Translations under genes and position numbers: made by a program
Assembly (NCBI GenBank): GCA_964587725.1
Contig: CAZPLO010000003.1
Coordinates: 21,660 to 85,659 of the forward strand
Length of the DNA: 64,000 nucleotides
DNA from: an uncultured archaeon
GTDB taxonomy: Archaea > Altiarchaeota > Altiarchaeia > IMC4 > SCGC-AAA252-I15
Direction: 5' to 3'
Notes under the pieces: model-generated
Databases searched by the model: none
Told to the model about the DNA's origin: nothing
Seen by the model: only the letters and a program-made list of their open reading frames with translations
Part shown: piece by piece, positions 27,434 to 39,357 of the stretch
How the letters are laid out: the number at the start of each line of letters is the position of its first letter
How positions within the stretch are numbered: position 1 is the first letter of the stretch

Positions 27434-28357
27434 TCATCTCCGCCAGTGTTCGAGGGTGTCCTCCAACGTCTTTTCAATCCCTATCTCCTGCTTCCACCCC
27501 GTATCATTCACGAACTTTCTGTTGTCGCCCATGATTATCGGCTCGTCCGTCGGCCGGAGTAGGTTAGGGTCTTCGAATGTTTCCACCTTCCCGTCGGCCA
27601 TGCCGACGAGTCCGTCGAGGAGGTCGCCTATCCTGTACGCCTTCATGCCACAGAGGTTGTATGCTTCACCGTAGTCTGCGTCGCGGCACATGTACAGCGC
27701 CCGTGCCATGTCGCGGACGTCCGTGATATCTCTCTTAGCCTCCAGGTTCCCGTGCCTAACCTTGTCCCTTTTACCTGCTTCGCATTCCGCCACCCGCTTG
27801 GCGAAGTCGGACACCACGTCCTTCACCTTGCCCGGGCCGGTGGTGTTGAATATCCTCGCCCGCACAGTCTTCACTTCGTTGTTCCTGTAATACTGGTATG
27901 CAAGCAGGTCCTGCGCGACCTTGCTGACGCCGTAGGGGTGAAGCGGCTTCAGCAGATGGTCTTCCCTCACCGGCACCTCGTCTTCCGACACGAACCCGTA
28001 TTCCGCCGAAGAACACGCCACCACGATTACAGGGTCCATCCCATGCTTCAATACGCTCTCGAACAAATTAGCAGTCCCAACAACGTTGGTCTCCAGCGTC
28101 AGCTGCGGCTTCTCCCACGACACGGTGGGGTAGCTCTGCGCCGCCAGATGGAATATCAGCTCCGGCATGGATTTGCCGACGGCGTCGTTGACTTCCTCCA
28201 TGGAGCGGACGTCGCATTTCACATACCTGTCAGCGTCCAGTCCTTTCGCGTATTTCCCCTCCTGCACGGACGCCCACACCTCATGCCCCTCAGCCTTCAG
28301 CAGTGTGAGGAGGTGCCGCCCTATGAACCCTTCCGCCCCCGTGACCAATGCATTCAT
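27434..28357 (-). CDS. GDP-mannose 4,6-dehydratase / GDP-4-keto-6-deoxymannose reductase-like SDR
   Basis: TGAEGFIG, HLAAQS, SSAEYG, PYGVSK, GNLEAKRD. Confidence 0.85.
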   Translation of the reverse strand: MNALVTGAEGFIGRHLLTLLKAEGHEVWASVQEGKYAKGLDADRYVKCDVRSMEEVNDAVGKSMPELIFHLAAQSYPTVSWEKPQLTLETNVVGTANLFESVLKHGMDPVIVVACSSAEYGFVSEDEVPVREDHLLKPLHPYGVSKVAQDLLAYQYYRNNEVKTVRARIFNTTGPGKVKDVVSDFAKRVAECEAGKRDKVRHGNLEAKRDITDVRDMARALYMCRDADYGEAYNLCGMKAYRIGDLLDGLVGMADGKVETFEDPNLLRPTDEPIIMGDNRKFVNDTGWKQEIGIEKTLEDTLEHWRR

Positions 28358-29370
28358 TTGAACAGTTCACCGTGTTCCACGGTCCACTCCACAATCTCCT
28401 TCACGCCCTCTTTCACGCCGACCTTCGGCTTCCACCCCGTCTCCTTTTTGAGGCGGGTGGTGTCGCTTATGTAGACTCTCTGGTCCCCCATCCGCCAGTC
28501 GTCGTACGACACCTCCGACCGCTTCCCTGTCAAGTCCTCTATGACGTCCAAGAGTTCGGTGAGGGAGATGGTGTTTTCGGGGCCGCCGCCGAGGTTGTAT
28601 GCGCGGCCGTCAGTCTTCCTGATTTTCTCGGCCAGGGTCTCGAACGCGGCGTTCTGGTCTGTTACGTAGAGTATGTCCCGCACCTGCTTCCCGTCGCCGT
28701 ATATGGTGATGGGTTTCCCTGTTACGGCGGCGATGGTGAACCATGCCACCCACCCCTGGTCTTCGTTCCCGAACTGGCGTGTCCCGTAGATGCAGCTCAT
28801 CCGCGCCTTAGCGGTCTTCAGTCCGAAGCTGCTGTTGTATGTGTCGAGTATGAACTCGGATATTATCTTGCTGCCTCCGTAGGGGCAGTTGCTCTCCAGC
28901 GGATACGACTCGTCTATCCCCATTATCTCACTGTAACTGTATCTGCTGTCGCCTTCGTCCACGGGCAGCTCTAGGTCGCCGTATACCTTGTTTGTCGAGC
29001 ACAGTACGATGGCTGGGTCGCAGCTTCCCTGCCGCACGGCCTCGCAGAGGTTGAAGGTTCCGTCCGCGTTCGTTTCGTAGTCTAGGCGCGGATTTTCCAG
29101 GGATGTGGTGACAGCCACCTGCGCCGCACAGTGGTACACCGTCTCCACACAGTCCATGATTCCGTCGAAGGTCTTCGGCTCCGATATGTCCCCTTTCACG
29201 AACTTCAGCCCCGGATAGTTGTCGCGGAGGTATCCTATGTTGTATCCGGTCCTCGACAGGTTGTCCACTACCGTCACATCGTCTCCATTTTTCACATGGT
29301 GTTCCGCCAGGTGCGAGCCTATGAACCCCGCGCCGCCAGTCACAAGAACCTTCACTTCAAACGCCTCCAA
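28354..29370 (-). CDS. CDP-paratose 2-epimerase-like NAD-dependent epimerase
   Basis: TGGAGFIG, AQVAVTTS, STNKVYG, RMSCIYG...EDQGWVAWF. Confidence 0.85.
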   Translation of the reverse strand: MEAFEVKVLVTGGAGFIGSHLAEHHVKNGDDVTVVDNLSRTGYNIGYLRDNYPGLKFVKGDISEPKTFDGIMDCVETVYHCAAQVAVTTSLENPRLDYETNADGTFNLCEAVRQGSCDPAIVLCSTNKVYGDLELPVDEGDSRYSYSEIMGIDESYPLESNCPYGGSKIISEFILDTYNSSFGLKTAKARMSCIYGTRQFGNEDQGWVAWFTIAAVTGKPITIYGDGKQVRDILYVTDQNAAFETLAEKIRKTDGRAYNLGGGPENTISLTELLDVIEDLTGKRSEVSYDDWRMGDQRVYISDTTRLKKETGWKPKVGVKEGVKEIVEWTVEHGELFK

Positions 29371-30064
29371 TCTTCGCTCTCAACATGATATTGTTTATTA
29401 TGTTTCTCAGTATCTTATTTAACGTTATCTTCGACGCACCCGCCTTCCGCTGCCGGAACAGTATCGGCACCTCCTTCACCCTGAACCCTTTCCTCGCAAC
29501 CCGTAGCAGTGTCTCAGGTCCGTCGTATATGCGCCGGTCTGTTACGTAACCGTCGAGGTCGAGCTGTCTCAGCACCTCTGTCTTGAATGCCTTGTAGCCT
29601 CCGGTGCAGTCCCTGTACGGCAGACCAAGTACGAGACGGGCGTAGGCGTTGGCGGCGCGGCTTATCAGCTTCCTCATCGGACTCCAGCCGGGCGTCCCCC
29701 CGCCCTCAACGTACCGTGAACCGACGACCACGTCGCATCCGTGGAGTTCACTGAGAAGCCTTTTTATGTCTGCCGGGTCGTGGCTGAAGTCCGCGTCCAT
29801 TTCAACGAGGGCGTCGTATCCTCTTTCGACGGCCCACTTGAACCCTGCGCGGCCTGCCTTTCCCCTCCCTCTCTCCTTTCTGTGAAGAATATGTACTCTC
29901 CCGTCTTTGGCCGCCAGCTCATCAACCACCTTCCCCGTCCCGTCGGGGCTATCATCGTCCACTACGAGGACGTCGAGGCCAGGGTCCTGCTCCACCAATG
30001 CCCCTATAATATCCACTATGTTCTCGCGTTCGTTGTATGTGGGCAGCATCGCGACGGCCTTCAT
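29357..30064 (-). CDS. polyprenol-phosphate glycosyltransferase (GT2, Dpm1-like)
   Basis: PTYNEREN, VDDDSPDGT, MDADFSHDP, GSRY. Confidence 0.9.
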   Translation of the reverse strand: MKAVAMLPTYNERENIVDIIGALVEQDPGLDVLVVDDDSPDGTGKVVDELAAKDGRVHILHRKERGRGKAGRAGFKWAVERGYDALVEMDADFSHDPADIKRLLSELHGCDVVVGSRYVEGGGTPGWSPMRKLISRAANAYARLVLGLPYRDCTGGYKAFKTEVLRQLDLDGYVTDRRIYDGPETLLRVARKGFRVKEVPILFRQRKAGASKITLNKILRNIINNIMLRAKIGGV

Positions 30065-30261
30065 GACATAGGGATTTGGTTTCAGAACTTAAATTAAGGA
30101 GGAGCATGAGGAGGGGGGTGTGGGCTATGTCCCCCTCCGTTGTGGGTGGTCTAAATTCGGTGTATTTCACCTAGGATAGCTTTCTTAAAGCAACTATCCA
30201 TATGATAATCTCTTTGCTTGCATTTAAGTATTTAGGTTTCCTATGAGAAACTAAAAATAAG

Positions 30262-30576
30262 ATGACTAAGAGAGAGAAGGAGCTGGACATCATGGGGTTC
30301 CTGGCGTCGAAGAAGTGGATACTCCTGGTGCTGACCGAACTCTACTTCCACGGCACCCAGCGGTTCAACGAACTCCTGGAGAACATGCGTGTGGTGAGCC
30401 CGAAGATATTGTCGCGGCGGCTGAAGGAACTGGAGGAGCGCGGCCTCGTGGTCCGCCGGAAGTTCAACGAGATCCCCCCGCGGGTCGAGTACACCCTGAC
30501 TTCCAAGGGCATGGAGTTGGTGAAGTCGTTCGAGGGCATCGGGAAGTGGGCTATCAAGTGGGAGCGCGACCTCTAG
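30262..30576 (+). CDS. HxlR-family winged-helix regulator
   Basis: KW...RFNEL...SPKILSRRLKELE..GLV.R...PPRVEYTLT. Confidence 0.92.
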   Translation: MTKREKELDIMGFLASKKWILLVLTELYFHGTQRFNELLENMRVVSPKILSRRLKELEERGLVVRRKFNEIPPRVEYTLTSKGMELVKSFEGIGKWAIKWERDL

Positions 30577-31099
30577 ACTCCAGGACCTCCGTGAACTCAG
30601 GCGTCCAATCCCTTTCCAGAATGTGTTTTCCGCCGGTCTGGAGCCAATCGACTATCGCTTCCACATCAACCCCTTCCGTGTTGTCCAACTCCAACACGTT
30701 CCCGCACCTTTTAAGGCTCTCATATAATATGACTCCTTCATATTCTGCTTCCAGGTTTTCCATAATCTTCCCGTCCGCGTAGCCGCGTTCCTTCATCCGT
30801 TTCTCCAGCAGGCGGGGGTCACACCGCAGCACCAGGACGTGGGTGGGGTCGAGTAGGTGGCTTAGCAACCCGTCCAATATGGTATTCGATTCCACTAGCC
30901 TCCAAACCTTCTCCTTCAGTCTGCCGGCGTCCACCACTTTGGTGTTCCTCTCTTCGTCGAACCTGTCGCACAGGCCTTCGCGTTCGACCAACAATGTCAA
31001 TTCCATGACCTTCCACCCGAGGCGTTCCCCCAGTTTCCGGGCCAGCGTGGTCTTCCCCGTGCAGGGGGTGCCGGTGACCGCCAATACATTGTACGCCAT
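30554..31099 (-). CDS. adenylate kinase, AK6/Fap7 family
   Basis: TGTPCTGKTT, SHLL, VLRCDP..L.KR...RGY...KI.EN.EAE. Confidence 0.88.
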   Translation of the reverse strand: MAYNVLAVTGTPCTGKTTLARKLGERLGWKVMELTLLVEREGLCDRFDEERNTKVVDAGRLKEKVWRLVESNTILDGLLSHLLDPTHVLVLRCDPRLLEKRMKERGYADGKIMENLEAEYEGVILYESLKRCGNVLELDNTEGVDVEAIVDWLQTGGKHILERDWTPEFTEVLESRGRAPT

Positions 31100-31130
31100 T
31101 TTTTAACCGCTGAAGCGAATACTTTAACAG
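31099..31130 (+). promoter_or_regulatory. conserved upstream element of pilin gene 1 (also before genes 2-5)
   Basis: TTTTTTAAC-N-GAAG(C/T)GAATA...TAA pattern at about 31099, 31513, 31959, 32350 and 32853; contains a TATA-like TTTAA. Confidence 0.6.
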
Positions 31131-31152
31131 TATTTGGGGAGGCGACTATATT

Positions 31153-31494
31153 ATGTCCAACTGGAAGCTGCAGGTGCTGTTTTTGGCTCTGCTGGTGGTG
31201 TCGGATGCGGCAGCCGCCGCCACTGAGATGAAAGACATAGCCTGCAATGTCATCAAACCCATCTACGAAACCCTGAAGACCATCGCCCCCGCCCTGGTCC
31301 TGTTGATGTTCACCTACGGCGCCGTCAAGTACGCCCTCGCATCCGACGACCCCGGCGGCCGGAAGCAGGCTAAAAACATCATGATACACGCCATCATCGC
31401 AGGCCTCATCATCGGCATCATATTATGGTTGATGGATGATGTTCTAGGACTCCTTAGCCAAGACTTGAAGAACTGTCTAGGCATAACGGCTTGA
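31153..31494 (+). CDS. VirB2/TrbC-like pilin paralogue 1
   Basis: Signal peptide; TM-YGAVKYALASDDPGGRKQAKNIMIHAIIAG-TM. Confidence 0.7.
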   Translation: MSNWKLQVLFLALLVVSDAAAAATEMKDIACNVIKPIYETLKTIAPALVLLMFTYGAVKYALASDDPGGRKQAKNIMIHAIIAGLIIGIILWLMDDVLGLLSQDLKNCLGITA

Positions 31495-31508
31495 TGTTGA
31501 ATCTGTTT

Positions 31509-31613
31509 GTTGTTTTTTTAACCTGTGAAGTGAATACTGTAACGGAGGCGTTGTTGTTATGGTTAGGCGGTTGCTGGTTTTGCTGGCTGTTTTCACGCTG
31601 CTGGCTGTAGCAG
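31509..31613. repeat. 105-bp perfect direct repeat, copy 1 (upstream region plus signal peptide of pilin 2)
   Basis: Identical to 31955-32059; match extends about 16 nt further with 2 mismatches. Confidence 0.93.
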
Positions 31614-31939
31614 CGTTTCCCGCATCCGCGGCGACAAACAAGTTGAAGGAAAACTTCTGTGAGATAGTGGTGTTGCTGCATAAGGTCCTGACGTATGTTG
31701 GGCCCACGATAGTGCTGCTGATGTTCCTCTACGGCGGCATCAAATACGTTTATTCCGCCGAGGACCCCGGCGGCCGGAAGCAGGCTAAAAACATCATGAT
31801 ACACGCGCTCATAGCGGGCATACTGCTGGGGCTCGCTGTGGTCATCATCGAGTTCGTGATCCCCACCATAAAAAACGACATTGATGCCTGCTACAGGCTA
31901 GCTGGTGCGGGGGCCAGGGTCGACATTCAACCCACCTGA
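31559..31939 (+). CDS. VirB2/TrbC-like pilin paralogue 2
   Basis: ASA cleavage site; YGGIKYVYSAEDPGGRKQAK core. Confidence 0.7.
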   Translation: MVRRLLVLLAVFTLLAVAAFPASAATNKLKENFCEIVVLLHKVLTYVGPTIVLLMFLYGGIKYVYSAEDPGGRKQAKNIMIHALIAGILLGLAVVIIEFVIPTIKNDIDACYRLAGAGARVDIQPT

Positions 31940-31954
31940 TTAGACTCCTGGTTG

Positions 31955-32059
31955 GTTGTTTTTTTAACCTGTGAAGTGAATACTGTAACGGAGGCGTTGT
32001 TGTTATGGTTAGGCGGTTGCTGGTTTTGCTGGCTGTTTTCACGCTGCTGGCTGTAGCAG
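31955..32059. repeat. 105-bp perfect direct repeat, copy 2 (pilin 3)
   Basis: Identical to 31509-31613. Confidence 0.93.
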
Positions 32060-32337
32060 TGTTTCCAGCATCCGCTAATATGGAAAAGAGCCTTGACGAC
32101 ACGCTCTGCGACATCCTGAAGGCCATAGGGTATGCGTTGGGAACCGTCGGCCCCATGCTTGTCGCATTGATGTTCCTCTACGGCGGAGTCAAGTACGTTT
32201 CTTCCGCAGACGACCCCGGCGGTCGCAAGCAGGGCAAGACCATATGCATACATGCGGTGATAGGCGGCATAATCATAGCATTGGCTCACACGCTGGTGAC
32301 TATGGTGGTTAATGTTCCATGCGACTTCTACTCCTGA
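32005..32337 (+). CDS. VirB2/TrbC-like pilin paralogue 3
   Basis: YGGVKYVSSADDPGGRKQGK core. Confidence 0.7.
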   Translation: MVRRLLVLLAVFTLLAVAVFPASANMEKSLDDTLCDILKAIGYALGTVGPMLVALMFLYGGVKYVSSADDPGGRKQGKTICIHAVIGGIIIALAHTLVTMVVNVPCDFYS

Positions 32338-32393
32338 CCGCGCAAACGGTTTTTTAACGCATAAGCGGAATATATAACAGCGAGGGGCTTCAA

Positions 32394-32759
32394 ATGCGTA
32401 TCAGCGGTTTCAGGGTCTTCCAGCTAACAATAATCGCATTATACCTGCTGTCTTGTTTTTCAACGGCGGTTGACGAGTTCGCTTTAAGGGATTCCTTCTG
32501 TGGCGTAATCAACGAAATAGGCGACGTATTGGAGAAAGTCGCCCCGGTCCTGGTGCTGCTGATGTTCACCTACGGCGGCGTCAAATACGTGTTCTCCGCG
32601 GACGACCCCGGCGGCCGGAAGCAGGGGAAGATGATATGCATATACTCCATTATCGGCGGAATCCTGATAATCCTCACATGGGAGATGATAAAGCTAATAT
32701 TCGGTTCCCTACCCCAAAATTTCCGATGCCCTACAACACCTTGGATGTCGAACCTATAG
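32394..32759 (+). CDS. VirB2/TrbC-like pilin paralogue 4
   Basis: YGGVKYVFSADDPGGRKQGK core. Confidence 0.7.
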   Translation: MRISGFRVFQLTIIALYLLSCFSTAVDEFALRDSFCGVINEIGDVLEKVAPVLVLLMFTYGGVKYVFSADDPGGRKQGKMICIYSIIGGILIILTWEMIKLIFGSLPQNFRCPTTPWMSNL

Positions 32760-32761
32760 GA

Positions 32762-32821
32762 CTAATATTCTGTTCCATCCCATATGATCTCTGGTGCCCT
32801 AAGGGTTTTTACTGGCCATGA
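32762..32821 (+). pseudogene. orphan alternative C-terminal cassette of pilin 4
   Basis: Reads LIFCSIPYDLWCPKGFYWP* versus gene 4 LIFGSLPQNFRCPT; 29/39 nt identical without gaps to 32694-32732. Confidence 0.7.
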
Positions 32822-32900
32822 TTTCTAGGCAGCCCCAAAGTCCGTCAAAATCTTTTTTTAACCTGTGAAGCGAATATTTAATCACCTCAACGGTGAACCC

Positions 32901-33233
32901 ATGAACAGAGACAACCTACTCCATATTCTCATGCTGGTGGCGGTTCTCGCGGCATCCGTCGACGGAGCATCCGCTAACCTGCACTCCAAGGTCTGCCCTA
33001 TTCTGGAGGCGTTCATCGACGTGTTGGAGACCATAGCTCCGGCGTTGGTTCTGCTGGTGTTCACCTACGGCGGCGTCAAATACATTTCGTCGGCGGACGA
33101 CCCCGGCGGCCGGAAGCAGGGTAAATCCATACTGATACACGCCATAATCGGCGGCATAATAATAATTATAGCCCGGTTCGTCGTGGGGATTGTGTTCTCA
33201 GGATGGGGCGACCAATGCCCGGGGGTTCTCTAA
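32901..33233 (+). CDS. VirB2/TrbC-like pilin paralogue 5
   Basis: ATG at 32901 after GGTGA; YGGVKYISSADDPGGRKQGK core. Confidence 0.7.
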   Translation: MNRDNLLHILMLVAVLAASVDGASANLHSKVCPILEAFIDVLETIAPALVLLVFTYGGVKYISSADDPGGRKQGKSILIHAIIGGIIIIIARFVVGIVFSGWGDQCPGVL

Positions 33234-33235
33234 CC

Positions 33236-33610
33236 ATGCGGGGTTTATATTCAAACACCAGGGTGGGGTTGAAGGCGGCGGCGGCCGTCCTTCTTTTACA
33301 GTCGGTGTCAGCCACCACGGACATTGCCTTGGCTTTCAAGAATGCGCCGTGCATGATAATCGGCCAGGCATACGGTGTCGTCAACACGGTCGGCCCCGCC
33401 CTGATACTGGTCATGATGTTCTATGCGGTGGCAAAGTACGCGTACAGCGCGGACGACCCCGGCGGCCGGAAGCAGGCCAAAACCATATTCATCCACGCCA
33501 TCATCGCGGGTATGTTCTTCGCACTGGTGGCCATAGTCTTCAGGATACTGGAAACCAACATTAGCTGGCTGTTCAAGGCCGGGAATCTCTGCTCGGGGGT
33601 TACTCTATGA
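33236..33610 (+). CDS. VirB2/TrbC-like pilin paralogue 6
   Basis: YAVAKYAYSADDPGGRKQAK core; ATG 2 nt after the gene 5 stop. Confidence 0.7.
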   Translation: MRGLYSNTRVGLKAAAAVLLLQSVSATTDIALAFKNAPCMIIGQAYGVVNTVGPALILVMMFYAVAKYAYSADDPGGRKQAKTIFIHAIIAGMFFALVAIVFRILETNISWLFKAGNLCSGVTL

Positions 33611-33957
33611 GGACAAGAAACCTCATGCATGCTCTGACCCTGGTTTCACTGCTTACGTCCGGATCCAGTGTGTCGGGCGCATCGAACGCCATACACACGG
33701 TGCCGTGCAAACTATTGGGTGGCCTGTTCTCGGCGCTCACCACCATCGGCCCGTCCCTGGTGTTGTTGATGATGGTCTATGGAGCCGCCAAGTACGCGTT
33801 CAGCGCGGACGACCCCGGCGGCCGGAAGCAGGGGAAGACCATATTCATCCACGCAATCATCGGGGCCGTCATTATGGGGCTCATATACATAATAGTTAAG
33901 GCTGTATTGGGTGCCTCATACGGTGACTATTTATGTTCGGGGGTGAAGTTCACGTAA
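33607..33957 (+). CDS. VirB2/TrbC-like pilin paralogue 7
   Basis: YGAAKYAFSADDPGGRKQGK core; ATGA overlap with gene 6. Confidence 0.7.
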   Translation: MRTRNLMHALTLVSLLTSGSSVSGASNAIHTVPCKLLGGLFSALTTIGPSLVLLMMVYGAAKYAFSADDPGGRKQGKTIFIHAIIGAVIMGLIYIIVKAVLGASYGDYLCSGVKFT

Positions 33958-33958
33958 A

Positions 33959-34306
33959 ATGTCGCTCGCACACAAGATTAAGTGGGTGGCGCCAACCGTC
34001 CTAATGTTCCTGTTGGTGTTAAGCCTGTTGGCGCCCACGGTGTCTGCATCCTACCTGGGCCCAATAACAACATTCTTAAAATCTTTAATCAACTCTATTC
34101 GCATAATAGGGAACTCAATCGCAGTCGTAATGTTCATCTACGGGGCGGCCAGGTACGTCTACGCATCCGATGACCCCGGCGGCCGGAAGCAGGCCATAAG
34201 CATATGCATAGCCTCGGTTGTGGCGTTGATAATCATCTTTATAGCGGAGTCTGTTATCGGCGCTATCTGTGCGTCGATGGGGCCTGACTGTAATCCTGTT
34301 AGCTAA
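33959..34306 (+). CDS. VirB2/TrbC-like pilin paralogue 8
   Basis: YGAARYVYASDDPGGRKQAI core. Confidence 0.7.
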   Translation: MSLAHKIKWVAPTVLMFLLVLSLLAPTVSASYLGPITTFLKSLINSIRIIGNSIAVVMFIYGAARYVYASDDPGGRKQAISICIASVVALIIIFIAESVIGAICASMGPDCNPVS

Positions 34307-34307
34307 A

Positions 34308-34625
34308 ATGAGGTATAAAATAGCGTATGCGGCGGCTTTGCTGGCTTTAATCTCAGCCGGCGTTCAGGCCACAACCGTCGACGCAGCCGGCATAATAGCG
34401 AATGTCATATGCGACCTGGTGCCTGAGGTCATAAACCTGGCTTACGTTCTAGCGTTGCTGATGTTCATCTACGCGGGCGCCAAGTACGCGTTCAGCGCGG
34501 ACGACCCCGGCGGCCGGAAGAAGGCGAAGTCGATTGCGGTCCAGGCGATTGTGGGTTTCCTGATAGTCGGCGTGTCGAAGGCCCTGGTGGAGGCCATAGC
34601 CGGTGCAGGCAACGTCTGCCCCTAA
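34308..34625 (+). CDS. VirB2/TrbC-like pilin paralogue 9
   Basis: YAGAKYAFSADDPGGRKKAK core; ATG at 34308. Confidence 0.7.
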   Translation: MRYKIAYAAALLALISAGVQATTVDAAGIIANVICDLVPEVINLAYVLALLMFIYAGAKYAFSADDPGGRKKAKSIAVQAIVGFLIVGVSKALVEAIAGAGNVCP

Positions 34626-37495
34626 CCTGTTAAAATCGTCTCTGAAGCACTGGTGGTGGATGCGAAGCCGTCGTAGCTTATCTCATAGGACCTTACGAAC
34701 CCCCAGCTGAAGTCTCCGTCGGGGCTGCCGTCGCCGTCGTAGTCTGGAACCAGGCGGAAGTGCTCCAGCGGCTCGACCTCCCTGTTGTACAGCCCCAAGG
34801 CCCTGTACTCATCCAGGTACCTGCCGAGGTACAGGCGGGTAATCATGAAGTCGTTAAACTCTTGTGGAACGTAAACAAGGGTTCTGAACTGCGGCATCCT
34901 GCAGATGCTCCCCTCCGGCAGCTGCTTCCAGTTCAACGCGCAAGCCATTATACTGGGTATTCTCTGCTCGTCGTATCCCACCAAGGGGACTACGCCAAGG
35001 AGTGATGCGTCGTTGGCGTCCCTCCAACTGTTCCACGGTATCCTGTTCCCGTACGGGCCGATGACGGTTATGTCCGCTATGCTGTCCTCCACTATCTCGA
35101 ACACTACTCCCGCGATGTAGCCCTGGCACCCGAATACCACCTGTTTGACTCGCCTGAAGTTGCCTTCGTCGTCGACCACCAGCTGCTCCTCCACCTGGCT
35201 CTGGTCCGGGAGGAAACTGCACTGGACGTAGTTTTTGAAGGACCCTGGAGTTACGTTCTCTATGACGCCGGTGGCTATGAAGTGCAGTGCGCTGCCCTTC
35301 GGCACCATAGTCCAGTCTATGGTCACGTAGTTCAACCCCATCCCCCGTTTCTCGTAAACCTCGTTATACTCTTCAACTATCTTGAAAGCCTCTTCCTCGC
35401 TGGTCTTGTTGACGAAGAAGCGGGCGACGTCCTGTATCTCATAGTAGTCGGCCTGCAGGTTGTCTATGAGCACCGGCCGCTGGCTCACGCTGGTGAACCA
35501 GTGGCCGTAGTCCCACCACGTCAGTATCGCGTCCCCCGGGTCGGTGTTCTGCTCGTGCCATTGGAGTGCGGGCTCCCAGTAGTATCTGTCGCTGGTGGCG
35601 CCCATGTGCATGACCTGGTAGCCCACGAACTTGTTATACTGCGTAGCCCCAAGAAGGGGGACGTAGAACACGGGTATGAACAGCACCATGATGGCGCCCA
35701 CCACCCGCAGGCTCTCCAAATCCTCCCTTTTAACCACCGCGAACAATCCTATGGTGGCTCCCAATGCTGTCACGGCTGTGCTGGACGCGAAAATCCATGC
35801 GCTCTTATGGTATGCCCCCCACAGCATCGGCAGGCTCCACGTAAGCAGGAACAGCGCCCCCACGCTACCCTTCCTGTACACCAGGTACGCGAGCACCGGA
35901 ATCATCATCAGCCCGTACAGTAATGCTATGCCGTAGCGGTTGTAGCCCTGCGCCAGGAACTCCTGGAACGACCCGGCAAGCGGGTTCTGCTCCGAAACGG
36001 TCATGTGCACGACGCTCCTGGTTCTGGCGGACATCAACCCGTTGATGACGAAATCTATCATACTGGAGGGGGTGATGAAGAATGTGAACGCCACTGTCCC
36101 AGCCACCAAGGCGACCACACCCAAAACCATTATGTTCTTACCCATCAGGTTCACCGTCCTGCTCTCCACCGAATCCCCTGATACCGTGTCCTCCCCGTAC
36201 ATGCGCACCCTCAATAACTCCAGTACGATGGACGCGCCCACAGCCGCTATTATCGGGTATACGGCGTTGGGCGTCATGTCCGGGAGCGCCGGCAGCCCGC
36301 CCCTCTCATGGAGTATGAGGCCGCCGCCCAACTGCGCAATAAAAACGGGAATCAGTATGTACGGTAGCGCCTCCACGGCGTTGCGTTTGTGCAGGAAGTT
36401 GACGAACGCGTACGCGGTCCCGAAGGCGCCCAGGGTGAGGAACGCGTACTGGGCTCCCCCCCACGCCACATTGAGCATGAGGAACGCCACGCCCGAGTAG
36501 GCAGCGTATTTGAAGCTGCGGCGGTGGTATCCCGCGAAGAACAGGTAGAGGGTGCTGACGAGCAGGAACATTCCCAGGGCGTCGTCTTCGCTGTTCGTCG
36601 CCACAGCCTTCATCGCGAAGGCTGGGCTGAGTATCAGCATGAACGCGGCCATGAACGCCGCCACCTTGTTGTACGGCCGCATGTCCGTGAACATCTCCTT
36701 CACCAGCAGGTACATAATCACCACCGTGAACGCCGATATGGCGCCGGGCAGCAGCATCGCCACGTCGTGCAGGCTGATTCCGAACGGCTCCAGCGCCAGG
36801 GCCAGCGACGAGTAAAGGACGGGCGTCATCATCCTCGTCGACGACTGGTCTAAGCCGTACATGCCCGCACGCCCGCCCATTGCAGACGGGTCGTTGCTGT
36901 GGGCCAGCCCTCCTAGCAGGGGATAAACCAGCGGGTCGAATTCAGGCGGGTATCCGCCGTCGTATATGCCCCGCATCCACTTGTAATGCCAGTAGGGGTC
37001 GAGCGCGGCCAAATAATCTGTTTTCGCAGGCGCCATGTGGGTTATCATCCCCGACAGGAACAGCGCCGCCACGCCGGCCACCTCAGCCTTCACTACCCCA
37101 TGGTAGGAGAGCGAGTACCCTAAAGCGAACACCGCCGCCACCGCGCTGAAGTACGTGTAGTCCTCGTTCAACGGGAACCCTATGGTGTTGCTGTAGTGTG
37201 AAAACAGCGCCGTTAAAAAAAGCAGGACGGGTATGCCGATGCTCCAGTAGTCCTTCTTCAGCCTCTTGTCTCTCAGAATAGTGGCGGCGGTCCACAGGAA
37301 CAGCGCCGCCATCATCAATGGTGTGCTGTCTCGCAGGAACCCCCCACTCAACGGTTTAACGGACGCCAGAACCAGTGCGGCCAGCGGCGCAAGGAACAGG
37401 GGCCTGTCAAGGTGTTCGCCGACTTTCCCGAGGCCGTCGACGGGGAGGCTGACGGAAACCTCCTTCTTCTTTTTCCTCCTCTTAGAAGCCATCAC
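34622..37495 (-). CDS. aglB: oligosaccharyltransferase AglB (STT3)
   Basis: LDPYWH, EDD, TVSEQ, WWDYGHW, DN motifs; multi-TM N-terminal domain. Confidence 0.92.
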   Translation of the reverse strand: MMASKRRKKKKEVSVSLPVDGLGKVGEHLDRPLFLAPLAALVLASVKPLSGGFLRDSTPLMMAALFLWTAATILRDKRLKKDYWSIGIPVLLFLTALFSHYSNTIGFPLNEDYTYFSAVAAVFALGYSLSYHGVVKAEVAGVAALFLSGMITHMAPAKTDYLAALDPYWHYKWMRGIYDGGYPPEFDPLVYPLLGGLAHSNDPSAMGGRAGMYGLDQSSTRMMTPVLYSSLALALEPFGISLHDVAMLLPGAISAFTVVIMYLLVKEMFTDMRPYNKVAAFMAAFMLILSPAFAMKAVATNSEDDALGMFLLVSTLYLFFAGYHRRSFKYAAYSGVAFLMLNVAWGGAQYAFLTLGAFGTAYAFVNFLHKRNAVEALPYILIPVFIAQLGGGLILHERGGLPALPDMTPNAVYPIIAAVGASIVLELLRVRMYGEDTVSGDSVESRTVNLMGKNIMVLGVVALVAGTVAFTFFITPSSMIDFVINGLMSARTRSVVHMTVSEQNPLAGSFQEFLAQGYNRYGIALLYGLMMIPVLAYLVYRKGSVGALFLLTWSLPMLWGAYHKSAWIFASSTAVTALGATIGLFAVVKREDLESLRVVGAIMVLFIPVFYVPLLGATQYNKFVGYQVMHMGATSDRYYWEPALQWHEQNTDPGDAILTWWDYGHWFTSVSQRPVLIDNLQADYYEIQDVARFFVNKTSEEEAFKIVEEYNEVYEKRGMGLNYVTIDWTMVPKGSALHFIATGVIENVTPGSFKNYVQCSFLPDQSQVEEQLVVDDEGNFRRVKQVVFGCQGYIAGVVFEIVEDSIADITVIGPYGNRIPWNSWRDANDASLLGVVPLVGYDEQRIPSIMACALNWKQLPEGSICRMPQFRTLVYVPQEFNDFMITRLYLGRYLDEYRALGLYNREVEPLEHFRLVPDYDGDGSPDGDFSWGFVRSYEISYDGFASTTSASETILTG

Positions 37496-38188
37496 TCACC
37501 TGCCGTATCTCCGCTCCGTGCCGCTGAAGTCGTCCAGTATCCTGGCCAGGTCCTCCTTCTCGAACTCAGGCCACAGCTTGTGTACGAAGTATATTTCGCT
37601 GTAGGCCGACTGCCACAGGAGGAAGTTGCTGAGCCGTTCCTCGGAAGTTCGTATGATGATGTCGGGGTCGCTTTTCACCCACAGGTTGGCCCGGAGGTTG
37701 TCTTCCGTAACCTCCACTCCATGCTCAACCATGTTTTTTATGGCGTTCAAGACCTCCTGTCGGCCGCCGTATCCGATGGCCAGGTTCAACGTGAAGTTCT
37801 TGTAGTCTCTGGTGGCCTCCTCCAGCTTGGACAGGTTCGACACCATATCAGACGCCAGCTTCTGGTTGGGGCTCTGCCTTATCAGTGAGTCAATGTCTCC
37901 GCAGACGTTGACCCGCACCTGTTTTTCCCGGAGGTTCTTGTCCTTCAACCCCTTCTTCGCGTTTTTGTTGAAGGCCTTGAAGAGGGTGTTTATCTCCCTG
38001 CTGTCGCGGTTGCCGAGGTTCTCCAGAGACAGTGCATACAGTGTTACCTCGTCGACTCCGAGGTCGTAGCTCCACTGCAGGAAGTCGTAGAACTTGTTTA
38101 TGCCCATGTTGTACGAGCTCAGCAGGTTCCTTATGTGTTTCTTCAGCATGAACCTGCGGTTCCCGTCCGGAATCACGCCCACGTGCAT
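37496..38188 (-). CDS. uppS: cis-polyprenyl diphosphate synthase
   Basis: IPDGNRR, YALSLEN, GYGGRQE, IIRTSEERLSNFLLWQSAYSE. Confidence 0.93.
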   Translation of the reverse strand: MHVGVIPDGNRRFMLKKHIRNLLSSYNMGINKFYDFLQWSYDLGVDEVTLYALSLENLGNRDSREINTLFKAFNKNAKKGLKDKNLREKQVRVNVCGDIDSLIRQSPNQKLASDMVSNLSKLEEATRDYKNFTLNLAIGYGGRQEVLNAIKNMVEHGVEVTEDNLRANLWVKSDPDIIIRTSEERLSNFLLWQSAYSEIYFVHKLWPEFEKEDLARILDDFSGTERRYGR

Positions 38189-38249
38189 TTTAAATAACTT
38201 AACCTCTGATGTCTAAAATATGTGCAAACATATAAATTAATAATATACT

Positions 38250-38723
38250 ATGGAAGTGCAGGTCTTGGACGCGTCCGCGATACTCCGCAGCACCATGGAT
38301 TTTTCCCGCGGAAACTACCTGATTCCGCAGGCGGCGTATGCGGAAGTCTTGGACGGAACCGCCCGGGCCGCATTGGAGGATGGAATACGGAACGGCGACA
38401 TAAAAGTGGCTGAACCGGCTCCCGAGGCGCTGGAGAAGGCGCGGGAGGCGGCTTCCGCCACAGGAGACGTCGAATCATTGAGCGACGCGGACCTGCAGTT
38501 GCTGGCGTTGGCCCTGGAACACGCCGCCGCCGTCGTATCCGACGACTACGCCATACAGAACACTGCCGCCGAACTCGGCCTGGAGGTGGTCGCAACATCG
38601 GCAGACGGCATAAAAAAACACATCAGGTGGCGGTGGGTGTGCGGCGGCTGCGGGAAATCCATGGACGGGTCTGGCGTATGCGGCGTATGCGGCCACAAAG
38701 CTAGGAGGAAGCCTAGCCCTTAG
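38250..38723 (+). CDS. nob1: Nob1 PIN-domain endonuclease
   Basis: VLDASA, LSDAD, SDDYAIQN, C-terminal CxxC..CxxCG. Confidence 0.9.
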   Translation: MEVQVLDASAILRSTMDFSRGNYLIPQAAYAEVLDGTARAALEDGIRNGDIKVAEPAPEALEKAREAASATGDVESLSDADLQLLALALEHAAAVVSDDYAIQNTAAELGLEVVATSADGIKKHIRWRWVCGGCGKSMDGSGVCGVCGHKARRKPSP

Positions 38724-39357
38724 CCTGTTCCACATACCATCTGAAGGAGTCGTCCAAGTCCTCTTTCACGGCGTCCGGCCACAGCCGCTCAAAGACGTGC
38801 AAGTAGGCGTAGGCGCTCTGGTACGGCAGGAACCCGCTCAACCTGCTCCGGCCGCCCCACCGCACAATCAGGTCTATCTCAGGTATCCTGTAGGAGTGCA
38901 TCCTGTGCCTCAGCCCCACCCTGCCGAGGTCCCACTTGTAGTCGTAGTTCACCAGCAGGTTCAGCCGCATTGACGCGTTTTTGCTGTGCCTTCTGTTCAC
39001 GTATTTCCTCAGTTTCTTGGGGAAAATCTCGGAGTCTCGTTTACCCACAATGTTGAGGGAAAGCCCGTCTATGTCGTTCAGCCGGTCCACCAGGTTGACT
39101 ATCGACTTCGAATAGGATTCAACCTCATGCGGTTCTCGCTCCCTGCTGTAGGGGAGGAATCCGTAGGCGGTGACTTCATTGACGCCGCATTCCATGCTGT
39201 ACGTCAGTATCTCAACCGCCCTCTCAACCGCCTTCCCGTAGGCTTTTCCGACGTCGACTCCGTTTTTCCTGGCCCACCTGCGGTTGCCGTCCGGTATCAC
39301 GCCCAGGTGCCCCGGCACCCTCTTTTCTTTGCTCATGTAGTCTTCAAATCGCACCAC
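38713..39357 (-). CDS. second cis-prenyltransferase (UppS family)
   Basis: HLGVIPDGNRRWA, DLIVRWGGRSRLSGFLPYQSAYA, LWPD. Confidence 0.88.
   Translation of the reverse strand: MVRFEDYMSKEKRVPGHLGVIPDGNRRWARKNGVDVGKAYGKAVERAVEILTYSMECGVNEVTAYGFLPYSREREPHEVESYSKSIVNLVDRLNDIDGLSLNIVGKRDSEIFPKKLRKYVNRRHSKNASMRLNLLVNYDYKWDLGRVGLRHRMHSYRIPEIDLIVRWGGRSRLSGFLPYQSAYAYLHVFERLWPDAVKEDLDDSFRWYVEQAKG

What the first reader, a model, noticed from the sequence alone, without database searches (positions are those of the whole stretch)
31153..34625. Tandem array of nine VirB2/TrbC-like pilins in an archaeon: candidate diversified pilus system
Seen: nine co-oriented genes of about 105-126 aa. Each has an SPase-I-type leader (mostly AxA-like, not class III), two hydrophobic helices around a near-invariant YG..KY...(D/E)DPGGRK(Q/K) loop, and very divergent mature N- and C-termini. 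Known: this layout resembles the T4SS-type pilins (VirB2/TrbC) seen in CPR bacteria and the archaeal Ced/Ted pilins. No VirB4/VirB6 homologue or mobile-element gene lies in the window; the array sits between AK6 and aglB. Inference: a chromosomal repertoire of variable pilins for adhesion, cell contact, DNA exchange or virus evasion.
Basis: partly seen in the sequence, partly recalled or inferred. Interest (0 to 1): 0.9.

Follow-up and report, generated by a model that had tools for sequence, protein, structure and literature searches.

The report
Archaeal array of nine conjugation-type pilins
Nine neighbouring genes in an uncultured archaeon encode small membrane proteins of the family that builds bacterial conjugation pili; the array is real and conserved in related genomes, but similar arrays are already known in ultra-small bacteria.

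Summary
Nine co-oriented ORFs at 31153-34625 match Pfam PF18895 T4SS_pilin; 8 of 9 pass the curated cut-off and 2 of 9 also pass TrbC/VirB2.

- **Organism:** a 1.56 Mb MAG whose relatives are titled Candidatus Altiarchaeota.
- **Machine elsewhere in the genome:** the window has no T4SS machine, but contig C41 carries a VirB4-like ATPase, a PrgI/VirB3-like protein and two more pilins. Giant proteins with pilin-like N-termini lie on C28 and C7.
- **Conserved locus:** 4-14 pilin genes abut the 3' end of aglB in 10 of 10 distinct related loci.
- **Ordered types:** the last two genes form position-conserved orthogroups. The promoter-proximal genes are lineage-specific duplicates, each with a copied promoter-like motif.
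- **Cysteine pair:** an N-terminal and a C-terminal Cys co-occur in 64 of 75 array pilins.
- **Fused forms:** sister families join 2-11 such units into single ORFs.

Best reading: several non-redundant subunit types of one T4SS-type pilus or conduit, rather than a purely variable repertoire. Closest analogue: Patescibacterial VirB2 arrays. Filament formation is untested. Novelty: new member of a known kind.

The parts
31153..31494 (+). pil1, 113 aa, T4SS_pilin
   Evidence: ORF; PF18895 38.9 bits against a cut-off of 26.6
31559..31939 (+). pil2, 126 aa, T4SS_pilin; recent sister of pil3
   Evidence: PF18895 33.7 bits; pil2 and pil3 are sisters, SH-aLRT 93
32005..32337 (+). pil3, 110 aa, T4SS_pilin and TrbC/VirB2
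   Evidence: PF18895 49.1 bits; PF04956 30.1 bits against a cut-off of 27.9; AF2 helical hairpin, pLDDT 87.8 and 89.3
32394..32759 (+). pil4, 121 aa, T4SS_pilin
   Evidence: PF18895 42.6 bits
32901..33233 (+). pil5, probable start 32901 (longest ORF starts at 32865); first gene of a likely pil5-pil9 operon
   Evidence: PF18895 39.9 bits; the promoter-like motif overlaps 32865, and an ATG stands at 32901
33236..33610 (+). pil6, probable start 33236 (longest ORF starts at 33203)
   Evidence: PF18895 26.0 bits, just under the 26.6 cut-off; 135 bits to the HMM built from the array itself; start candidates
33607..33957 (+). pil7, 116 aa; overlaps the pil6 stop by 4 nt
   Evidence: PF18895 39.1 bits; forms an orthogroup with 4 relatives, SH-aLRT 85
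33959..34306 (+). pil8, 115 aa; conserved penultimate type that lacks the N-terminal Cys
   Evidence: PF18895 36.0 bits; orthogroup of 9 rows, one per locus, SH-aLRT 98; alignment
34308..34625 (+). pil9, probable start 34308 (longest ORF starts at 34269); conserved last type, tail-to-tail with aglB
   Evidence: PF18895 30.5 bits and PF04956 29.2 bits; orthogroup of 9 rows, SH-aLRT 95
31100..31122 (+). promoter-like motif TTTTTAAC-N10-AATAY before pil1; further copies at 31515-31537, 31961-31983, 32351-32373 and 32855-32877
   Evidence: 8 matches in the whole genome on both strands, 5 of them 38-55 nt before pil1-pil5; a close variant stands before the first pilin of the same-genus relative. 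Promoter function is inferred.
31505..31629 (+). 125-nt direct repeat, 98% identical to 31951-32075; covers the promoter motif, 5' UTR and signal peptide of pil2 and pil3
   Evidence: family D3
30554..31099 (-). AK6-like kinase, upstream flank of the syntenic locus
   Evidence: AAA_18 76.3 bits; orthologue upstream of the array in 7 of 10 distinct related loci
34622..37495 (-). AglB oligosaccharyltransferase, convergent downstream flank
   Evidence: STT3 50.0 bits and AglB_core-like 34.2 bits; orthologue next to the array in 10 of 10 distinct related loci

Best explanation
The nine genes encode Sec-exported two-helix membrane proteins of the VirB2/TrbC pilin superfamily (Pfam T4SS_pilin). Leader cleavage by signal peptidase I is inferred. 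In the membrane both ends would face outward, and the invariant positively charged DDPGGRKQ turn would face the cytoplasm. A conserved cysteine before helix 1 and another after helix 2 probably form a disulfide that ties the two outward ends together.

I infer that these proteins are the building blocks of a pilus or short conduit. A chromosomal, apparently relaxase-less T4SS-like machine encoded elsewhere in the genome would assemble it. That machine comprises a VirB4-like ATPase, a PrgI/VirB3-like protein and VirB6-like giants with pilin-like N-termini. In such a structure the conserved turn would line the lumen or lipid side, and the variable ends would form the outer surface.

The array is not a set of interchangeable variants. 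It holds at least three to five non-redundant subunit types in a fixed order, with pil7-, pil8- and pil9-types last. In this genome the promoter-proximal type has also been duplicated together with its promoter.

The likely use is cell-to-cell contact or macromolecule exchange, as proposed for Patescibacterial VirB2 arrays and shown for the archaeal Ced system. Shown here: family membership, genome content, synteny, orthology, Cys co-occurrence and the fused forms. Inferred: cleavage, disulfide, assembly by the distant VirB4 locus, filament formation and function.
For: - **Profile matches:** PF18895 passes the cut-off in 8 of 9 and PF04956 TrbC in 2 of 9. The NCBIfam pilin-like conjugal transfer family NF045849 is listed for 9 of 9, but below its cut-off.
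- **Fold:** AF2 gives a long helical hairpin with a 4-residue turn at the conserved motif, pLDDT 87.8 and 89.3.
- **T4SS parts in the genome:** contig C41 carries a 756-aa VirB4-like protein (TraG P-loop 84.5 bits, AAA_10 54.7, DUF87 51.5), PrgI (33.8 bits) and two pilins. C28 carries a 1036-aa protein with a pilin domain (27.1 bits) and a weak TrbL match.
- **Full operon in a relative:** the same-genus genome has, in order, proteins of 1382, 155, 682 (weak pilin-like N-terminus) and 398 aa, then PrgI, VirB4 and 3 pilins.
- **Conservation of VirB4:** 66-83% identical in 5 of 5 relatives searched.
- **Spread of the pilin family:** PF18895 is found in 40 of 41 genomes of the order, with 2-30 matches each.
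- **Synteny:** arrays of 4-14 genes lie next to aglB in 10 of 10 distinct loci.
- **Orthology:** pil8- and pil9-type clades hold one row per locus at the same rank, SH-aLRT 98 and 95.
- **Cys pair:** both present in 64 of 75, neither in 4, C-terminal only in 7, N-terminal only in 0. In a wider set, 75 of 77 have both, and the other 2 have two Cys in the C-tail.
- **Disulfide capacity:** the genome encodes a membrane-anchored DsbA-like protein with a CPYC site.
- **Fused forms:** polypilins with 2-11 units occur in sister families, and library representatives have up to 17 matched stretches.
- **Conservation pattern:** the loop scores 0.82 and the termini 0.34-0.35.
Against: - No filament, transcript or protein has been observed.
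- The array is not next to VirB4. The VirB4 locus has its own, different pilins that lack the DDPGGRKQ motif, so the machine may not use the array proteins.
- Foldseek found no PDB match at E <= 0.001, and no pilin appeared among the listed hits, for either the full-length or the mature model.
- A profile search of PDB sequences found no pilin chain.
- The TrbL and giant-protein matches are at or below cut-off.
- Fused polypilins are polytopic membrane proteins. They fit a membrane-embedded platform at least as well as an extruded filament.
- No VKOR was found.
- The rows in the Cys statistics are related to each other, so the Fisher p of 2.7e-4 overstates the support.
Confidence: 0.55

Rival explanations
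1. The proteins never leave the membrane. They are stacked hairpin modules of a translocon or platform, comparable to the pilin-like N-terminal part of VirB6/CedA, and not subunits of an extracellular filament.
For: - Sister lineages join 2-11 units in one polytopic ORF after a single signal peptide, and library representatives show up to 17 matched stretches.
- Giants with a pilin-like N-terminus plus a weak TrbL match exist in this genome.
- Passages of PMC9905601 state that the CedA and VirB6 N-termini are homologous to their pilins.
- The VirB4 locus has its own separate pilins.
Against: - The best profile matches are to pilin families, not to VirB6.
- The variable, Cys-linked outward ends and the conserved turn match the surface/lumen pattern of T4SS pili. 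That pattern is recalled knowledge of F- and T-pilus structures.
- Linkers between fused units join two outward-facing ends, which does not exclude a filament.
Confidence: 0.25
2. The array is a variable repertoire. Alternative pilins are expressed one or a few at a time to change surface specificity, for partner or host range, virus evasion or antigenic-type variation, as proposed for Bartonella, Anaplasma and Patescibacteria arrays.
For: - pil1-pil5 each carry a copy of a promoter-like motif.
- Copy number ranges from 4 to 14 among relatives.
- The termini are the least conserved parts.
- A 98%-identical 125-nt tract is shared by pil2 and pil3, while their mature parts have diverged. This suggests recombination or recent duplication.
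- Passages of PMC12102498 propose this role for such arrays.
Against: - pil8- and pil9-type genes are one-to-one orthologues at fixed positions across 9 loci.
- pil5-pil9 have no intergenic space.
- Fused multi-unit ORFs force co-expression of different units.
- No inversion or cassette structure, and no within-population variants, were seen in the four DNA runs laid on the locus. Those runs are contigs only, which is weak evidence.
Confidence: 0.15
3. They are secreted small hydrophobic peptides, such as bacteriocin-like toxins or signalling peptides, that only resemble pilins in composition.
For: They are small, have Sec leaders and a Cys pair, and occur as tandem paralogues.
Against: - Specific matches to two pilin families pass curated cut-offs.
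- Homologous pilins sit directly beside VirB4 and PrgI.
- No immunity or transporter gene is visible in the locus.
- The locus is conserved across a whole archaeal family.
Confidence: 0.03

Closest known systems
VirB2-like pilin arrays of Patescibacteria (CPR) T4SS
   Same: - Same Pfam family (PF18895/PF04956).
- Tandem arrays of divergent paralogues. Passages of PMC12102498 report 441 arrays of 2-11 genes with mean identity 25% and maximum 54%. Here there are 9 genes with mean 36% and maximum 53%.
- The partner set is PrgI/VirB3, VirB4 and VirB6-like proteins.
- The closest plasmid relatives of this VirB4 are from monoderm bacteria.
- No relaxase was found.
   Different: - The host is an archaeon.
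- The array sits at a fixed housekeeping locus between AK6 and aglB, far from VirB4.
- The last genes are position-conserved orthogroups.
- A conserved Cys pair is present.
- Sister lineages fuse units into polypilins.

I did not see the last two features in the passages read. The paper's supplements were closed and may bear on this.
Archaeal Ced (CedA1) and Ted (TedC) DNA-import pili
   Same: - These are chromosomal, domesticated T4SS derivatives in archaea with VirB2-like pilin, VirB4 and VirB6 homologues.
- TedC has an SPase-I-type leader.
- The pilin-like N-terminus of the VirB6 homologue is noted (passages of PMC9905601).
   Different: - There is no detectable sequence or fold match to solved pilin chains.
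- In the passages read, Ced and Ted loci carry the pilin beside the ATPase and channel genes, with no multi-gene array described.
- The phyla are different.
Classical TrbC/VirB2 conjugative pilins (RP4 TrbC, Ti VirB2, F TraA)
   Same: - Leader plus two hydrophobic helices around a short charged turn.
- PF04956 passes its cut-off for pil3 and pil9.
- Cyclic TrbC and TrhA join their N- and C-termini covalently (abstracts listed). The Cys pair here could do the same job through a disulfide.
   Different: - The genes are not plasmid-borne.
- No relaxase or coupling protein was found above noise.
- There are many paralogues.
- The disulfide replacing peptide cyclisation is inferred only.

Membership tests
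Pfam PF18895 T4SS_pilin / VirB2-TrbC superfamily | Profile match above the curated cut-off | tested here: met
   8 of 9 pass 26.6 bits (30.5-49.1); pil6 scores 26.0. PF04956 TrbC passes 27.9 bits in 2 of 9.
Pfam PF18895 T4SS_pilin / VirB2-TrbC superfamily | Cleavable Sec-type leader followed by two hydrophobic helices joined by a short charged turn | tested here: met
   AF2 gives helices 30-66 and 71-102, with the leader helix at 2-18. The mature model has helices 6-42 and 47-84. A-x-A-like leader ends were read by eye; cleavage was not predicted by any program.
Pfam PF18895 T4SS_pilin / VirB2-TrbC superfamily | Fold similarity to solved T4SS pilins | tested here: inconclusive
   Foldseek against PDB gave 0 matches at E <= 0.001. 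The listed hits are generic helical hairpins and none is a pilin. A two-helix hairpin discriminates poorly.
Pfam PF18895 T4SS_pilin / VirB2-TrbC superfamily | Encoded with a VirB4-type ATPase and VirB3/VirB6 partners | tested here: inconclusive
   The partners are present in the genome on another contig, which has its own pilins. They are conserved in 5 of 5 relatives. They are not adjacent to the array.
Pfam PF18895 T4SS_pilin / VirB2-TrbC superfamily | Polymerises into a lipid-associated extracellular filament | not testable with these tools
   No RNA holder or proteome was available. No complex job was run.
Ced/Ted archaeal DNA-import systems | Pilin homologous to CedA1 or TedC | tested here: not met
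   A profile of 37 sequences against all PDB chain sequences at E <= 10 gave only a designed coiled coil and a chemokine receptor. That CedA1 and TedC chains are in the PDB is recalled from PMC9905601 and was not checked.
Ced/Ted archaeal DNA-import systems | Pilin gene clustered with the VirB4 (CedB/TedB) and VirB6 (CedA/TedA) homologues | tested here: not met
   The array lies between AK6 and aglB in this genome, and next to aglB in 10 of 10 related loci.
Patescibacteria-type T4SS with VirB2 arrays | Tandem array of divergent VirB2-like genes | tested here: met
   9 genes with 24-53% pairwise identity.
Patescibacteria-type T4SS with VirB2 arrays | MPF-FATA-like VirB4 with PrgI/VirB3, and no relaxase | tested here: inconclusive
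   PrgI scores 33.8 bits. The best plasmid hits of VirB4 are 'CD1110 family' ATPases of Firmicutes and Actinobacteria at 26-31% identity. No VirB4 phylogeny was made. Only one relaxase family (PF03432) was searched, in a 92%-complete genome, and gave 0 matches.
Patescibacteria-type T4SS with VirB2 arrays | Host is a Patescibacterium | tested here: not met
   Related loci are titled Candidatus Altiarchaeota archaeon. The neighbours are archaeal AglB and AK6.
Archaeal type IV pilins (class III signal peptide) | Short charged leader cut before a hydrophobic N-terminal helix; match to an archaeal pilin family | tested here: not met
   No such Pfam family is listed at E <= 1 for any of the 9. The leaders are long, with A-x-A-like ends, followed by a polar segment (by eye).

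The most novel reading that the evidence does not exclude
Altiarchaeota build a heteropolymeric T4SS-type pilus or conduit from several fixed, non-redundant VirB2-like subunit types. Each subunit is closed by a disulfide that mimics the head-to-tail cyclisation of TrbC-type pilins. In some lineages the same structure is made from covalently concatenated 'polypilins' of up to 17 units. Together with a conserved, relaxase-less VirB4-PrgI-VirB6-like machine, this would be an archaeal counterpart of the essential Patescibacterial cell-contact apparatus. It would point to an ancient, cross-domain machine for cell-to-cell exchange in uncultured lineages.
Probability: 0.3. Interest if true: 0.8.

Novelty: new member of a known kind. 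Interest (0 to 1): 0.55.

Why it matters
T4SS-type pilins in archaea are so far characterised only in the Ced and Ted systems of Thermoproteota. I found no paper linking Altiarchaeota with T4SS pilins:
- Altiarchaeota + VirB4: 0 papers.
- Altiarchae + T4SS: 1 paper, a type IV pili census seen only as a listing.
- VirB2 + DPANN: 6 papers, none on this in the listing.

The family is found in 40 of 41 genomes of the order, with 2-30 matches each, so it is a major unexplored surface or membrane feature of this lineage. Three features give concrete handles on how VirB2-type subunits assemble and how such arrays evolve: the fixed gene order, the Cys pair and the fused polypilins. They also offer a natural comparison with the essential pilin arrays of Patescibacteria.

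Tried and rejected
- **PDB sequence search:** the profile search found no pilin.
- **CagE_TrbE_VirB family (PF03135):** no match in the genome. VirB4 was found instead through my own ORF scan and other families.
- **VirD4 family (PF02534):** only two P-loop-only matches of about 20 bits, in roughly 508-aa proteins that look HerA-like from their N-termini by eye. I did not pursue them.
- **N-glycosylation link to the neighbouring aglB:** only 4 N-X-S/T sequons in 2234 residues of the outward segments of 75 pilins. I rejected this as a general link.
- **Expression:** no RNA holder was listed.
- **Reads:** four DNA runs from one study, three of them possibly the source of the window, were laid on 28000-39000. 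The contigs break inside the array, as expected for repeats. They show no variants in the array. This is no evidence on absence of variation.
- **First motif pattern:** it had wrong spacing and gave 0 matches. The corrected pattern was used.
- **Relaxed motif in relatives:** it matched none of 8 related loci. A near variant before the first pilin gene was then seen by eye in L015, L007 and L011.
- **sigma-70 and terminator scan:** not above the shuffled background and not suited to archaea.
- **Taxonomy look-ups:** both failed to find the phylum name. The organism label rests on record titles.
- **Complex prediction:** not used. A filament is a poor case for it by the tool's own text.
- **Supplements:** closed, and not consulted.

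Full report
**1. The observation**

One search lists nine + strand ORFs of 110-135 aa at 31153-34625, exactly as described. All are intact. Upstream lies a 181-aa AAA_18 kinase (AK6-like, 30554-31099, - strand). Downstream and convergent lies a 957-aa STT3/AglB (34622-37495). A cis-prenyltransferase, a GT2 glycosyltransferase, an epimerase and an HxlR regulator are nearby.

The nine proteins share an invariant D-P-G-x-R-K turn. Majority-residue frequency is 0.82 in the turn region, 0.54-0.58 in the two hydrophobic helices and 0.34-0.35 in the mature N- and C-terminal segments. Pairwise identity is 24-53%, mean 36%.

The starts of three genes are probably later than the longest ORFs: pil5 at 32901, pil6 at 33236 and pil9 at 34308. 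The leaders look like Sec/SPase-I leaders, with a basic n-region, a hydrophobic core and an A-x-A-like end. I judged that by eye; no predictor was available.

**2. Family**

Pfam T4SS_pilin (PF18895) matches all nine. Eight pass the 26.6-bit cut-off (30.5-49.1 bits) and pil6 scores 26.0. TrbC/VirB2 (PF04956) passes its 27.9-bit cut-off for pil3 (30.1) and pil9 (29.2). It is listed below cut-off for three more. NCBIfam lists the Mbov_0395 pilin-like conjugal transfer family for all nine, all below cut-off. No archaeal type IV pilin family appears.

AlphaFold2 gives a confident hairpin:
- With a 37-row alignment, pLDDT is 87.8, with helices at 30-66 and 71-102 after a leader helix.
- The mature part with 77 rows gives pLDDT 89.3, with helices at 6-42 and 47-84.

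Foldseek against the PDB returned only generic hairpins, such as ATP synthase subunit c and chemoreceptor or kinase coiled coils. It gave nothing at E <= 0.001. A profile search of PDB sequences found no pilin. The family assignment therefore rests on sequence profiles and genome context, not on fold matching.

**3. Organism and the rest of the machine**

The window is part of a 1.56 Mb, 48-contig, 92%-complete genome. Related loci and proteins carry the titles Candidatus Altiarchaeota or Altiarchaeales archaeon. One homologue is already named 'pilin' by NCBI.

The genome has 15 PF18895 matches over the cut-off:
- the nine array genes;
- two solitary genes of the same DPGxRKQ subtype, on C14 and C34;
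- two different pilins on the 6.4-kb contig C41;
- one match each inside giant proteins on C28 and C7.

C41 carries, in a row, a PrgI/VirB3-like protein (33.8 bits), a 756-aa VirB4-like ATPase (TraG P-loop 84.5, AAA_10 54.7 and DUF87 51.5 bits) and the two pilins. The C28 giant (1036 aa) has a pilin domain (27.1 bits) followed by a weak TrbL/VirB6 match (20.1 bits, below cut-off).

In the same-genus genome G001 the full operon reads, in order: proteins of 1382 aa, 155 aa, 682 aa (weak pilin-like N-terminus) and 398 aa, then PrgI, VirB4 and three pilins. It lies beside housekeeping genes.

Further points on the machine:
- VirB4 is 66-83% identical in 5 of 5 relatives searched.
- Its nearest plasmid relatives are 'VirB4-like conjugal transfer ATPase, CD1110 family' genes of Firmicutes and Actinobacteria, at 26-31% identity.
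- PF03135 gave no match.
- A VirD4 search gave only P-loop noise.
- The one relaxase family searched gave nothing.
- A second VirB4-like gene is broken across the ends of contigs C27 and C45.

**4. Conservation of the array**

PF18895 is found in 40 of 41 genomes of the order (the count includes this one), with 2-30 matches each.

I collected 10 distinct related loci (11 fetched; L008 and L018 are the same contig). In 10 of 10 a run of pilin genes ends next to the 3' end of an AglB orthologue (40-60% identity over the full length; the tenth, L010, holds only a 97-residue piece at its contig end, 70% identical). In 8 of 10 a UPPS orthologue follows. In 7 of 10 an AK6 orthologue lies within 3 kb upstream. 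Of the other three loci, two begin at or near the array, and one showed no AK6 in 6.8 kb.

Copy numbers are 4, 4, 4 (contig-truncated), 5, 5, 5, 5 (one weak), 6, 11 and 14, against 9 here. The locus is therefore old and chromosomal, not a mobile element.

**5. Phylogeny**

I built a quick maximum-likelihood tree of 75 pilins on 106 columns. Many forks are unresolved: 39 of 72 inner branches are open. The rows left out are the ORFs scoring under 25 bits.

- The pil8-type and pil9-type genes each form a clade of nine rows, one per locus. They are always penultimate and last in the array (SH-aLRT 98 and 95).
- A pil7-type group of five has SH-aLRT 85.
- pil1-pil6 fall into poorly resolved, lineage-specific groups, and pil2 and pil3 are sisters.
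- The two largest arrays (11 and 14 genes, from other genera) form their own partly paired clades.

The array therefore holds fixed, non-redundant types plus recent duplicates.

**6. How the duplicates arose and how the array may be transcribed**

The motif TTTTTAAC-N10-AATAY occurs 8 times in the whole genome on both strands. Five of these stand 38-55 nt before pil1-pil5. A near variant stands once before the first pilin gene of the same-genus relative, and similar strings stand before the first genes of two others. My relaxed regex matched none of the 8 related loci.

pil2 and pil3 share a 125-nt tract, 98% identical, that covers the motif, the 5' UTR and the signal peptide. pil6-pil9 follow their predecessors with a gap or overlap of only 1-4 nt.

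I infer an ancestral single-promoter operon. In this genome its first gene was duplicated several times together with its promoter. That gives five transcription units: pil1, pil2, pil3, pil4 and pil5-9. Promoter function is inferred.

**7. The cysteine pair**

A Cys about five residues into helix 1 and a Cys just after helix 2 are nearly invariant. Among the 75 array pilins the counts are:

| N-terminal Cys | C-terminal Cys | Rows |
|---|---|---|
| yes | yes | 64 |
| no | no | 4 |
| no | yes | 7 |
| yes | no | 0 |

Several of the seven 'C-terminal only' rows are truncated or poorly aligned.

Within the pil8-type orthogroup of nine:
- three have both Cys, at a shifted position;
- four have neither;
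- two, including pil8, have two Cys in the C-tail instead.

In a wider set of 77 sequences, 75 have both, and the other two have the double C-tail pattern.

In the hairpin model the two positions lie at the same, open end of the hairpin, about one helical turn out of register. That is my arithmetic; I could not read the coordinates. The genome encodes a membrane-anchored DsbA-like thioredoxin with a CPYC site but no VKOR.

I infer an intramolecular disulfide that ties the two outward ends together. This would be a functional parallel to the peptide cyclisation of TrbC and TrhA pilins (abstracts listed). The rows are related to one another, so the Fisher p of 2.7e-4 overstates the case.

**8. 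Fused forms**

A profile search of 1.84 billion representatives found 14,198 proteins at E <= 0.001, 599 at E <= 1e-10 and 28 at E <= 1e-30. Many top hits are long proteins with several matched stretches, up to 17 in 1775 aa and 11 in 1147 aa.

The sequences show one leader followed by repeated hairpin units. Each unit keeps both Cys and a charged turn.

In genomes of sister families of the same order I confirmed uninterrupted table-11 ORFs with multiple units:
- 7, 4 and 7 units in three adjacent genes;
- 11 units in one gene;
- 2 units in another.

One cluster member is titled Candidatus Altiarchaeales. Only the first unit aligns from the leader region. Later units align from the mature part, which keeps a consistent out-in-out topology.

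Fusion of different units argues that the separate gene products of the window's array also act side by side in one assembly.

**9. Interpretation**

The most likely reading (0.55) has these parts:
- The nine proteins are exported, leader-cleaved, disulfide-closed VirB2-type subunits of several fixed types.
- They are used by the conserved, apparently relaxase-less VirB4-PrgI-VirB6-like machine.
- They build a pilus or short conduit for cell contact or macromolecule exchange.
- The conserved positively charged turn faces the cytoplasm in the membrane, and the lumen or lipid in the assembly.
- The variable ends lie outside.

The rivals are:
- a membrane-embedded platform made of stacked hairpins (0.25), favoured by the polytopic fused forms;
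- a true variable repertoire (0.15), favoured by individual promoters and copy-number change but weakened by fixed orthologues, the operon and the fusions;
- secreted peptides (0.03).

No expression data exist, since no RNA holder was listed.

**10. Comparison with known systems**

The closest known analogue is the Patescibacterial T4SS. Passages of PMC12102498 describe VirB4, PrgI/VirB3, VirB6 and VirB2-like genes. They report 441 arrays of 2-11 pilin genes, with mean identity 25%. Relaxases are mostly absent. One array is essential in an epibiont.

Passages of PMC9905601 describe the archaeal Ced and Ted systems as domesticated T4SS, with a pilin-like N-terminus in the VirB6 homologue. I could show no direct similarity to their pilins.

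I found no paper on T4SS-type pilins in Altiarchaeota in the searchable library. Supplements were closed.

**Verdict**

This is a real and correctly recognised pilin array, and a new archaeal member of a known kind. Three features may be new: the fixed subunit order, the Cys pair, and the polypilin fusions in relatives.

Noticed in passing
L022:3008-10372 (+), L024:811-4317 (-), L023:3982-5073 (+); library proteins P0030-P0050: 'Polypilins': single ORFs with one signal peptide followed by 2-17 tandem T4SS_pilin hairpin units, each keeping the Cys pair. They occur in sister families of the same archaeal order and carry the name 'hypothetical protein' or no name in the sources.
   Followed up: partly
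G000:C41:134-6376 (locus L001), outside the window: A core T4SS-like cluster (PrgI/VirB3-like, 756-aa VirB4-like ATPase, two pilins without the DDPGGRKQ motif) lies next to a class II tRNA synthetase gene. The contig ends inside the cluster. The full operon is seen in the same-genus relative, L019:7209-19958.
   Followed up: partly
G000:C28:7695-10805 (-) and G000:C7:3182-7498 (+), outside the window: Giant proteins of 1036 and 1438 aa have an N-terminal pilin-like domain. The first also has a weak TrbL/VirB6 match. They are flanked by other giants of 1083 and 1166 aa; the 1166-aa one gave no Pfam match, the 1083-aa one was not scanned.
   Followed up: partly
G000:C3:363-1190 (-), about 20 kb before the window start: A membrane-anchored DsbA-like thioredoxin (Thioredoxin_4, 95 bits) with a CPYC active site. 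No VKOR homologue was found in the genome.
   Followed up: partly
G000:C27:15401-15867 and G000:C45:9-518: A second VirB4-like gene, 32-40% identical to the first, is split over two contig ends and seems to stop early on C45. It is a possible remnant or an assembly break.
   Followed up: no
G000:C14:30049-30375 (+) and G000:C34:1374-1703 (-): Two near-identical solitary pilins of the same subtype as the array. One lies before a 755-aa membrane protein with no Pfam match. The other lies beside a PMT_2-type glycosyltransferase and three further large genes that I did not scan.
   Followed up: no
window 31505-31629 and 31951-32075: A 125-nt direct repeat, 98% identical, spans the promoter motif, 5' UTR and signal peptide of pil2 and pil3. 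Their mature parts are only about 58% identical, which suggests gene conversion or a recent duplication with fast divergence.
   Followed up: partly
window 28000-39000: Public contigs of four microbial-mat DNA runs from one study cover the locus and break repeatedly inside the array. Four single-base differences in the AK6-like gene (30964-31001) separate the runs.
   Followed up: no
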